A stretch of DNA of 7,279 nucleotides from a virus. Its lineage: Duplodnaviria; Heunggongvirae; Uroviricota; Caudoviricetes. The position numbers were made by a program. Location: the IMG/VR virus record IMGVR_UViG_2740892369_000004; one strand, given 5' to 3'. Below, one piece after another: positions 5,601 to 7,279 of the stretch (within the stretch, counting starts at the first letter, position 1; each line of letters opens with the position of its first letter).

Positions 5601-7279
5601 GGATGTTTATGACGAGCAAAGAAACCTTTACCCATTACCAGCCGCTGGGCAACAGTGACCCGGCTCATACCGCAACCGCGCCCGGCGGATTGAGTGCGAA
5701 AGCGTCTGCAATGACCCCGCTGATGCTGGACACCGCCACCCGTAAGCTGGTTGCGTGGGATGGCACCACCGACGGTGCTGCCGTTGGCATTCTTGCGGTT
5801 GCTGCTGACCAGACCAGCACCACGCTGACGTTCTACAAGTCCGGCACGTTCCGTTATGAGGATGTGCTCTGGCCGGAGGCTGCCAGCGACGAGACGAAAA
5901 AACGGACCGCGTTTGCCGGAACGGCAATCAGCATCGTTTAACCTTACCCTTCATCACTAAAGGCCGCCTGTGCGGCTTTTTTTACGGGATTTTTTTATGT
6001 CGATGTACACAACCGCCCAGCTGCTGGCGGCAAATGAGCAGAAATTTAAGTTTGATCCGCTGTTTCTGCGTCTCTTTTTCCGTGAGAGCTATCCCTTCAC
6101 CACGGAGAAAGTCTATCTCTCACAAATTCCGGGACTGGTAAACATGGCGCTGTACGTTTCGCCGATTGTTTCCGGTGAGGTTATCCGTTCCCGTGGCGGC
6201 TCCACCTCTGAATTTACGCCGGGATATGTCAAGCCGAAGCATGAGGTGAATCCGCAGATGACCCTGCGTCGCCTGCCGGATGAAGATCCGCAGAATCTGG
6301 CGGACCCGGCTTACCGCCGCCGTCGCATCATCATGCAGAACATGCGTGACGAAGAGCTGGCCATTGCCCAGGTCGAAGAGATGCAGGCAGTTTCTGCCGT
6401 GCTTAAGGGCAAATACACCATGACCGGTGAAGCCTTTGATCCGGTTGAGGTGGATATGGGCCGCAGTGCGGCAAACAACATCACACAGTCCGGTGGCACG
6501 GAGTGGAGCAAGCGTGACAAGTCCACGTATGACCCGACCGACGATATCGAAGCCTACGCGCTGAACGCCAGCGGCGTGGTGAATATCATCGTGTTTGATC
6601 CGAAAGGATGGGCGCTGTTCCGTTCCTTCAAAGCCGTCAGGGATAAGCTGGATACCCGTCGCGGCTCTCATTCCGAGCTGGAGACAGCGGTAAAAGACCT
6701 GGGCAAAGCGGTGTCTTATAAGGGAATGTATGGCGATGTGGCCATCGTCGTGTATTCCGGACAGTACGTGGAAAACGGCGTCAAAAAGAACTTCCTGCCG
6801 GACAACACGATGGTGCTGGGGAACACTCAGGCACGCGGTCTGCGTACCTATGGCTGTATTCAGGATGCGGACGCACAGCGCGAAGGCATTAACGCCTCTG
6901 CCCGTTACCCGAAAAACTGGGTGACTACCGGCGATCCGGCGCGAGAGTTCACCATGATTCAGTCAGCACCGCTGCGTCGAAAACGCGGCGATGTTGCAGG
7001 ATAAACCAGTACTTATCTTCTCGCTGGAGATGCCTTCAGAACAGATTATGATGCGTTCTCTGGCGTCGCTGTCGCGCGTTGACCAGACGAAAATCCGTAC
7101 CGGGCAGCTCGATGATGAAGACTGGGCGCGCATTTCCGGCACCATGGGTATTTTGCTCGAAAAACGCAATATCTATATCGATGACTCCGCCGGCCTGACG
7201 CCAACGGAAGTGCGTTCCCGCGCACGCCGTATTGCCCGTGAACACGGCGGCATCGGGCTTATCATGATCGACTACCTGC

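What the first reader, a model, noticed from the sequence alone, without database searches (positions are those of the whole stretch)
6976..7279. The helicase fragment is host-like DnaB, not a phage replication gene, and lacks its N-terminal domain and Walker A motif
The translated fragment matches the E. coli-type DnaB ATPase domain almost residue for residue as I recall it (LIFSLEMPSEQIMMRSLASLSRVDQTKIRTGQLDDEDWARISGTMGILLEKRNIYIDD...GGIGLIMIDYL). The breakpoint lies a few codons after the Walker A GKT, so the P-loop and the whole primase-interacting N-terminal domain are missing. In lambda the replication genes (O, P) are about 30 kb away and P is not a DnaB homolog. dnaB is essential, so a real genomic fusion would require a second intact copy. 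This makes an artefactual or engineered origin of the join more plausible than a natural one.
Basis: partly seen in the sequence, partly recalled or inferred. Interest (0 to 1): 0.5.

Follow-up and report, generated by a model that had tools for sequence, protein, structure and literature searches.

The report
Assembly chimera: prophage contig, dnaB tail
The helicase fragment is a 305-base piece of the bacterium's own dnaB gene stuck onto the end of a prophage contig in a draft genome; two finished genomes of the same strain lack the join, so it is almost certainly an assembly artefact and not biology.

Summary
Window 6975-7279 is E. coli chromosomal dnaB, nt 732-1036, residues 245-345. It matches at 303/305 nt and 100/101 aa, against at most 76% aa for any true phage helicase (P1 Ban). 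It lacks the N-terminal domain and Walker A (GKT 236-238). It is out of frame with the truncated capsid gene E, which runs on for 9 junk codons to a stop at 7002-7004.

The window is the whole 7,279-bp contig JHEW01000102.1 of the draft genome of STEC O26:H11 strain 97-3250. Two closed genomes of that strain (CP027599.1, CP074773.1) each show an intact canonical dnaB in its normal alr-dnaB-qorA context and a normal gene E. None of 5,426 complete E. coli genomes spans the join, and it is absent from three contig collections.

The phage part is a multi-copy repeat. Two prophage copies in this strain match each other over window 1-7006 except at 5945; the contig starts exactly at the left edge of that block and leaves it 32 bp before the right edge. 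The tail has 2 private T>G changes against the strain's own dnaB; the phage part has 0 in 6,974.

Best explanation: a chimeric read or mis-extension at the end of a collapsed repeat contig. It is not engineered, not a phage helicase, and not novel.

The parts
1..6974 (+). Lambda-type prophage head module (Nu1, A, W, B, C/Nu3, D, and E truncated). It is a multi-copy repeat in strain 97-3250.
   Evidence: 6974/6974 identical to prophage copies in O26:H11 genomes, including the closed genome of 97-3250 (L012 of CP027599.1). 97.8% identical to lambda nt 139-7112. Pfam families of the called genes are listed.
53..598 (+). Nu1, terminase small subunit
   Evidence: 181-aa ORF; PF07471 Phage_Nu1; annotated in homologous records.
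573..2498 (+). Gene A, terminase large subunit, with an in-frame TGA at 723-725 (a pseudogene as annotated by RefSeq).
   Evidence: The translation shows ...YQEGR*ETLPF. RefSeq flags 'internal stop' in 97-3250. The same TGA is in all 10 loci L004-L013. Lambda has TGG here.
2495..5941 (+). W (2495-2701), portal B (2698-4299), C/Nu3 protease-scaffold (4280-5599), decoration protein D (5609-5941).
   Evidence: Called genes with Pfam families gpW, Phage_portal_2, Peptidase_S49 and HDPD; annotation of homologous records.
5997..6974 (+). Major capsid gene E, codons 1-326 of 341; the last 15 codons are missing.
   Evidence: In the closed genome E corresponds to window 5997-7022. Pfam Phage_cap_E matches residues 5-326, profile 1-315 of 329. 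The parent phage continues ATGCTGCTGGCTGAC after 6974.
5997..7004 (+). Chimeric ORF: E residues 1-326 plus 9 out-of-frame residues (RRKRGDVAG) read from dnaB sequence, then TAA.
   Evidence: This exact 335-aa product is on record in only one contig, JHEW01000102.1.
6974..6975 (.). Junction: a clean join with no inserted bases and no microhomology.
   Evidence: Three-way alignment of window, phage parent and dnaB parent. No k-mer of 10 nt or more is shared between the E 3' region and dnaB, and there are no adapter sequences.
6975..7279 (+). E. coli chromosomal dnaB nt 732-1036 (residues 245-345), running off the contig end. It has no start codon, no N-terminal domain and no Walker A.
7089..7089 (+). 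Private T>G change (synonymous, dnaB nt 846) relative to the dnaB of both closed 97-3250 genomes.
   Evidence: G at this site occurs in 52 of 5,426 genomes; the two I inspected carry a different allele with 8 differences from the tail.
7189..7189 (+). Private T>G change (dnaB nt 946, S316A) relative to the dnaB of both closed 97-3250 genomes.
   Evidence: Found in 0 of 5,426 complete genomes. S316A does exist in an unrelated lineage on a different nucleotide background.

Best explanation
The E|dnaB join is an artefact of a draft short-read assembly. Strain 97-3250 carries several lambdoid prophages whose head modules are identical or nearly so, and the assembler collapsed them into one contig. 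At the right end of that repeat, just before the copies diverge, the contig was extended by about one read length (305 bp) of chromosomal dnaB. The likely source is a chimeric read or template made during library preparation or sequencing. The dnaB piece has no function here: it has no start, no promoter of its own, no N-terminal domain and no P-loop, and it is out of frame with E. Shown: the identity of both halves, the source contig and strain, the absence of the join from finished genomes of the same strain, and the repeat boundaries. Inferred: that a chimeric read, and not some other assembler error, made the join, and that the two T>G changes are read errors.
For: (1) The window is the entire contig JHEW01000102.1 of GCA_000695115.1, which is the draft genome of STEC O26:H11 strain 97-3250 (PMC7649339).
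(2) Two independent closed genomes of that strain show an intact canonical dnaB (WP_000918363.1) in the normal alr-dnaB-qorA-pspG-dusA context and a normal full-length E.
(3) No place in any of 5,426 complete E. coli genomes covers the junction. The junction 31-mer is absent from viral, genome and metagenome contig collections.
(4) Prophage copies L011 and L012 of the same genome match each other over window 1-7006 except for one mismatch at 5945. Going left from window position 1 their first mismatch is at position 0, and going right from 6000 it is at 7007. So the contig starts exactly at a repeat boundary and leaves the phage 32 bp before the other one, where assemblers typically break or mis-extend.
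(5) The tail is only 305 bp and ends the contig.
(6) The tail has 2 differences from the strain's own dnaB, against 0 in 6,974 bp for the phage part (Fisher p = 0.0018). Both are T>G, and the two-G allele was found nowhere else.
(7) The copy that matches the window exactly (L012) lies on the opposite strand to dnaB, so a real join would need an inversion that splits an essential gene.
Against: No raw reads were available, so read support across 6974/6975 was not measured. The sequencing platform and assembler of the draft are unknown. The other contigs of the draft could not be inspected, so I did not see its full-length dnaB contig. S316A is a tolerated natural allele in another lineage, and 7089-G is a natural polymorphism, so the two T>G changes are not proven to be errors. 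The lack of microhomology fits an in-vitro ligation chimera but also fits some in-vivo illegitimate recombination.
Confidence: 0.9

Rival explanations
1. The join is real but rare. In the culture sequenced for the draft, illegitimate recombination joined prophage E to dnaB in a subpopulation. It could be the novel joint of a roughly 1.66-Mb tandem duplication or excised circle, using the prophage copy that lies on the same strand as dnaB, or a phage-host hybrid molecule formed during spontaneous induction. Either would leave an intact dnaB elsewhere.
For: One prophage copy (L011) is on the same strand as dnaB, so a duplication or circle joint E978|dnaB732 is geometrically possible. A tandem duplication keeps both genes intact. 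Joins without homology are known in E. coli (my own knowledge of lambda-bio formation; not tested here).
Against: The join is absent from both closed genomes of the strain and from all 5,426 complete genomes. L011 differs from the window at 5945, and the exact-match copy is inverted relative to dnaB. There is no prophage within 20 kb of dnaB, so it is not a specialised-transduction joint. The two extra private changes in the tail would need separate mutations. The position 32 bp from a repeat edge, and the contig ending 305 bp later, are what an assembly artefact predicts and would be coincidences for a real event.
Confidence: 0.06
2. The tail comes from another E. coli strain (cross-sample contamination or index bleed) that was mis-joined to the 97-3250 prophage contig. 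This is still an artefact, but the two G alleles would be real variants of that other strain.
For: Both variant sites are polymorphic elsewhere in E. coli.
Against: The exact two-G allele was not found in complete genomes, species representatives or metagenome contigs. Apart from the two sites, the tail is identical to the 97-3250 allele. A chimeric join would still be needed.
Confidence: 0.03
3. Either an engineered construct (a lambda cloning vector carrying an E. coli insert) or a true phage-encoded DnaB-type helicase gene.
For: None beyond the superficial phage-plus-helicase arrangement.
Against: The phage part is 100% identical to the strain's prophage and only 97.8% identical to lambda. 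The break is inside capsid gene E and not at a cloning site, and there is no vector or adapter sequence. True phage helicases are at most 76% identical (P1/P7 Ban), against 99% for chromosomal DnaB.
Confidence: 0.01

Closest known systems
E. coli chromosomal replicative helicase DnaB (WP_000918363.1)
   Same: 303/305 nt and 100/101 aa over residues 245-345. The fragment includes the SLEM motif and the IMIDYL Walker B region (motif names are from my own knowledge).
   Different: It covers only 101 of 471 residues. There is no start, no N-terminal domain, no linker and no Walker A. It is fused out of frame to a phage capsid gene and carries two private T>G changes.
Phage-encoded DnaB-like helicases (P1/P7 Ban; DnaB-type helicases of other phages)
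   Same: The same protein family (DnaB_C).
   Different: Only 75-76% aa identity for Ban, and below 60% for 641 of the 664 matching phage records. The fragment is not the phage's own gene, and lambda-type head modules do not contain replication genes.
Collapsed-repeat and chimeric contigs in short-read draft assemblies of STEC genomes with several near-identical lambdoid prophages
   Same: The contig starts exactly at a repeat boundary and leaves the repeat near the other one. A short foreign tail ends the contig. The join is absent from the closed genome of the same strain.
   Different: Nothing that I could test. Read-level confirmation is missing.
Novel joints of lambda specialised transducing phages (lambda-dgal and lambda-bio type)
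   Same: A phage late gene joined to host DNA by non-homologous joining.
   Different: The host DNA should come from beside the prophage attachment site, but there is no prophage within 20 kb of dnaB in a STEC-like genome or in the strain itself.

Membership tests
DnaB-family replicative helicase (functional gene) | RecA-like C-terminal domain (Pfam DnaB_C) | tested here: met
   PF03796, E = 2e-26, but only profile positions 41-138 of 255.
DnaB-family replicative helicase (functional gene) | Walker A P-loop (GKT) | tested here: not met
   GKT is at residues 236-238 of DnaB and the fragment starts at 245.
DnaB-family replicative helicase (functional gene) | N-terminal primase-binding domain (Pfam DnaB, PF00772) and an own start codon | tested here: not met
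   dnaB nt 1-731 are absent, and the sequence upstream of 6975 is capsid gene E. The full-length gene does carry PF00772.
E. coli chromosomal dnaB (origin of the DNA) | Near-identity at nucleotide level to chromosomal dnaB, higher than to any phage or plasmid helicase | tested here: met
   99.3% nt identity to dnaB; a place covering the dnaB part is present in 5,425 of 5,426 genomes. Best true phage helicase 76% aa.
Phage-encoded DnaB-like helicase (P1 Ban and other phage DnaB types) | Higher identity to phage helicases than to the host gene, and location in a phage replication module | tested here: not met
   The neighbours are head-morphogenesis genes.
Assembly chimera at a collapsed repeat | Junction absent from a finished genome of the same strain | tested here: met
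   The source is strain 97-3250. CP027599.1 and CP074773.1 both have an intact dnaB, and normal E was read in CP027599.1; neither spans the junction.
Assembly chimera at a collapsed repeat | Contig ends coincide with boundaries of a multi-copy repeat | tested here: met
   The L011/L012 matching block runs from window 1 to 7006. The contig starts at position 1, and the phage part ends at 6974.
Assembly chimera at a collapsed repeat | Little or no read support across the junction; coverage drop in the tail | not testable with these tools
The indirect sign is 2 private changes in 305 bp against 0 in 6,974 bp.
Specialised-transduction joint | Host segment lies beside a prophage attachment site | tested here: not met
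   No prophage genes within 20 kb on either side of dnaB in E2865, nor in the stretches read around dnaB in 97-3250: about 8.7 kb on the alr side and 40 kb on the qorA side in CP074773.1, and about 5 kb each side in CP027599.1.

The most novel reading that the evidence does not exclude
The junction is a genuine low-frequency recombinant that was present in the sequenced culture of STEC O26:H11 97-3250. It would be a homology-independent join between a prophage capsid gene and dnaB, for example the joint of a megabase-scale tandem duplication or circle, or a phage-host hybrid molecule made during spontaneous prophage induction, captured by chance in a draft assembly.
Probability: 0.05. Interest if true: 0.25.

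Novelty: not a real feature. Interest (0 to 1): 0.05.

Why it matters
It matters only as quality control. A public draft genome (JHEW01000102.1) contains a chimeric contig, and it has produced a spurious 335-aa 'capsid' protein that is on record in protein collections. The same contig could be misread as a phage carrying a host helicase fragment, or as evidence for transduction of dnaB. Recognising it prevents false claims of phage-host gene fusion. It also shows a practical test for such cases: check whether the contig ends sit on repeat boundaries, and compare with a closed genome of the same strain.

Tried and rejected
- Searched the junction 31-mer in viral, genome and metagenome contig collections; none had it.
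- The first exact look-up of the chimeric ORF used the wrong start (6003) and found nothing. Using the annotated start 5997 found the source contig.
- I suspected the draft belonged to the CDC 228-STEC set, but its accession table has no JHE* entries. The strain was identified from PMC7649339 instead. That paper gives no sequencing platform for the draft.
- My first guess for the position of dnaB in CP027599.1 was wrong. I found it by synteny.
- I looked for a shared k-mer that could mis-join an assembly graph, and for Nextera, TruSeq and 454 adapter sequences at the junction; there were none.
- At first I read the two T>G changes as clear sequencing errors. This was weakened when full-length DnaB S316A turned up in 17 run assemblies, and partly restored when that lineage proved to have a different nucleotide background and T at 7089, and when the exact two-G allele was found nowhere else.
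- A lambda cloning vector was rejected because identity to lambda is only 97.8%.
- A specialised-transduction joint was rejected because there is no prophage near dnaB.
- I did not run the large protein homology searches, structure prediction or RNA tools, because they could not bear on the question.

Full report
**What is in the sequence**

The window is a lambda-type head gene module followed by a short foreign tail. Positions 1-6974 carry Nu1 (53-598), terminase A (573-2498), W, portal B, C/Nu3, D, and the first 326 codons of the major capsid gene E (5997-6974).

From 6975 to the end (7279) the DNA is E. coli dnaB, nt 732-1036. Frame 1 from 6976 reads VENAAMLQDKPVLIFSLEM...GGIGLIMIDYL without stops, while the other two forward frames are full of stops. 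The fragment matches Pfam DnaB_C (E = 2e-26) at profile positions 41-138 of 255.

In full-length DnaB, GKT is at residues 236-238. The fragment covers residues 245-345, so Walker A, the linker and the whole N-terminal domain are missing.

**Host gene or phage gene**

The tail is the host gene.

- Against 5,426 complete E. coli genomes the tail is 303/305 identical to chromosomal dnaB, and 5,425 genomes have a place covering the whole dnaB part.
- Against 50,697 phage records the best true phage helicases are P1/P7 Ban at 75-76% aa.
- An unannotated Cronobacter phage hit reaches 81%.
- The 91% hits are Salmonella sequences deposited in that collection: two whole-genome contigs and one 2.6-kb unannotated record.
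- 641 of the 664 matching records are below 60%.

**The junction**

A three-way alignment shows a clean switch between 6974 and 6975, with no inserted bases and no microhomology. The capsid ORF continues out of frame into dnaB for nine codons (RRKRGDVAG) and stops at 7002-7004.

No k-mer of 10 nt or more is shared between the E 3' region and dnaB, and there are no adapter sequences.

**Where the window comes from**

An exact look-up of the 335-aa chimeric ORF found a single record. The window is the entire 7,279-bp contig JHEW01000102.1 of the draft assembly GCA_000695115.1. JHEW01000000 is the draft genome of STEC O26:H11 strain 97-3250 (PMC7649339).

The junction 31-mer is absent from the viral, species-representative genome and metagenome contig collections. 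No place in any complete E. coli genome covers it.

**The decisive comparison**

Two independent closed genomes of the same strain are in the collection.

| Record | dnaB position (strand) | Product |
|---|---|---|
| CP074773.1 | 5,543,697-5,545,112 (-) | canonical WP_000918363.1 |
| CP027599.1 | 5,533,580-5,534,995 (-) | canonical WP_000918363.1 |

In both, dnaB is full-length and sits in the usual alr-dnaB-qorA-pspG-dusA context. In CP027599.1 the prophage copy L012 matches window 1-6974 at 6974/6974, and E then continues normally with ATGCTGCTGGCTGAC. The finished genomes of this very strain therefore lack the join.

**Why an assembler would err here**

Strain 97-3250 has at least three prophages that share this head module (L011, L012 and L013 in CP027599.1). 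Copies L011 and L012 match each other over window 1-7006, with one mismatch at 5945. Going left from window position 1 their first mismatch is at position 0, and going right from 6000 it is at position 7007.

So the contig begins at exactly the base where the repeat begins, and it leaves the phage 32 bp before the repeat ends. This is the signature of a collapsed repeat contig. The dnaB tail is only 305 bp long, about one long read, and it ends the contig.

**The two differences in the tail**

Relative to the dnaB of both closed 97-3250 genomes, the tail differs at 7089 (synonymous) and 7189 (S316A). Both changes are T>G. The 6,974-bp phage part has no difference from L012, and the contrast is significant (Fisher p = 0.0018).

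- 7189-G occurs in none of the 5,426 complete genomes.
- 7089-G occurs in 52 of them; the two I inspected carry a different allele with 8 differences from the tail.

I first took these changes as plain read errors, but a wider look-up tempered that. Full-length DnaB S316A exists in 17 sequencing-run assemblies, for example SRR7748393, in normal chromosomal context. That lineage has a different dnaB background: 21 differences from 97-3250's dnaB, 5 from the tail, and T at 7089. So the tail does not come from it.

The tail's exact two-G allele was not found in metagenome contigs or species-representative genomes. The excess of private changes therefore fits a poorly supported tail, but it does not prove read error.

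**Natural alternatives**

- **Inversion.** The exact-match prophage copy (L012, + strand) is on the opposite strand to dnaB (- strand). A real join from that copy would need an inversion that splits an essential gene.
- **Tandem duplication or circle.** Copy L011 is on the same strand as dnaB, so the joint of a roughly 1.66-Mb tandem duplication or excised circle is geometrically possible and would keep an intact dnaB. However, L011 differs from the window at 5945, and neither closed genome has such a structure.
- **Specialised transduction.** This is not supported, because no prophage lies within 20 kb of dnaB in E2865, nor in the stretches read around dnaB in 97-3250.
- **Lambda cloning vector.** This is excluded, because the phage part is the strain's own prophage and only 97.8% identical to lambda.

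**Verdict**

The fragment is host dnaB, truncated and non-functional, attached to a prophage contig by an assembly or sequencing artefact in a public draft genome (confidence about 0.9). About 0.05 remains for a real but rare recombinant in the sequenced culture. Read mapping or junction PCR would settle it.

The finding is not a biological feature and is not novel. Its value is as a warning that this contig, and the 335-aa 'capsid' protein derived from it, are spurious.

Noticed in passing
window 723-725 (within gene A, 573-2498): The terminase large-subunit gene has an in-frame TGA where lambda has TGG (Trp). The same stop is in all 10 STEC prophage loci fetched (L004-L013). The 581-aa ORF downstream of it is on record in 220 blocks of the collection. 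RefSeq annotates the gene as a pseudogene ('internal stop'). The Stx1a-converting phage LC645429 differs from the window at this base. I did not examine whether these prophages are packaging-defective or rely on UGA read-through by tRNA-Trp, which would restore the wild-type residue.
   Followed up: partly
L011, L012, L013 (NZ_CP027599.1), corresponding to window 1-7006: Three prophages in one genome share a head module of about 7 kb that is identical or nearly so (0-1 substitutions, or one 1-nt indel), although their flanks differ. This suggests recent recombination or gene conversion among co-resident prophages, including spread of the terminase stop codon.
   Followed up: partly
NZ_CP027599.1 compared with NZ_CP074773.1 (both strain 97-3250): The prophage copy identical to the window lies at 3,020,033 in one closed assembly and at 2,555,393 in the other, a shift of 464,640 bp. 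dnaB shifts by only 10,117 bp, and both records start near dnaA. This points to a large rearrangement between stocks or to an assembly difference.
   Followed up: no
L013 (NZ_CP027599.1), corresponding to window 6818-6821: One prophage copy has a 1-nt deletion in a run of G that truncates capsid E to 308 aa. It may be a real frameshift or a long-read homopolymer error.
   Followed up: no
L025 (Logan SRR7748393_177), dnaB at 10001-11416: A full-length DnaB with S316A occurs in 17 sequencing-run assemblies, on a dnaB allele 21 nt different from that of 97-3250. The substitution in this essential helicase is therefore tolerated in nature.
   Followed up: partly
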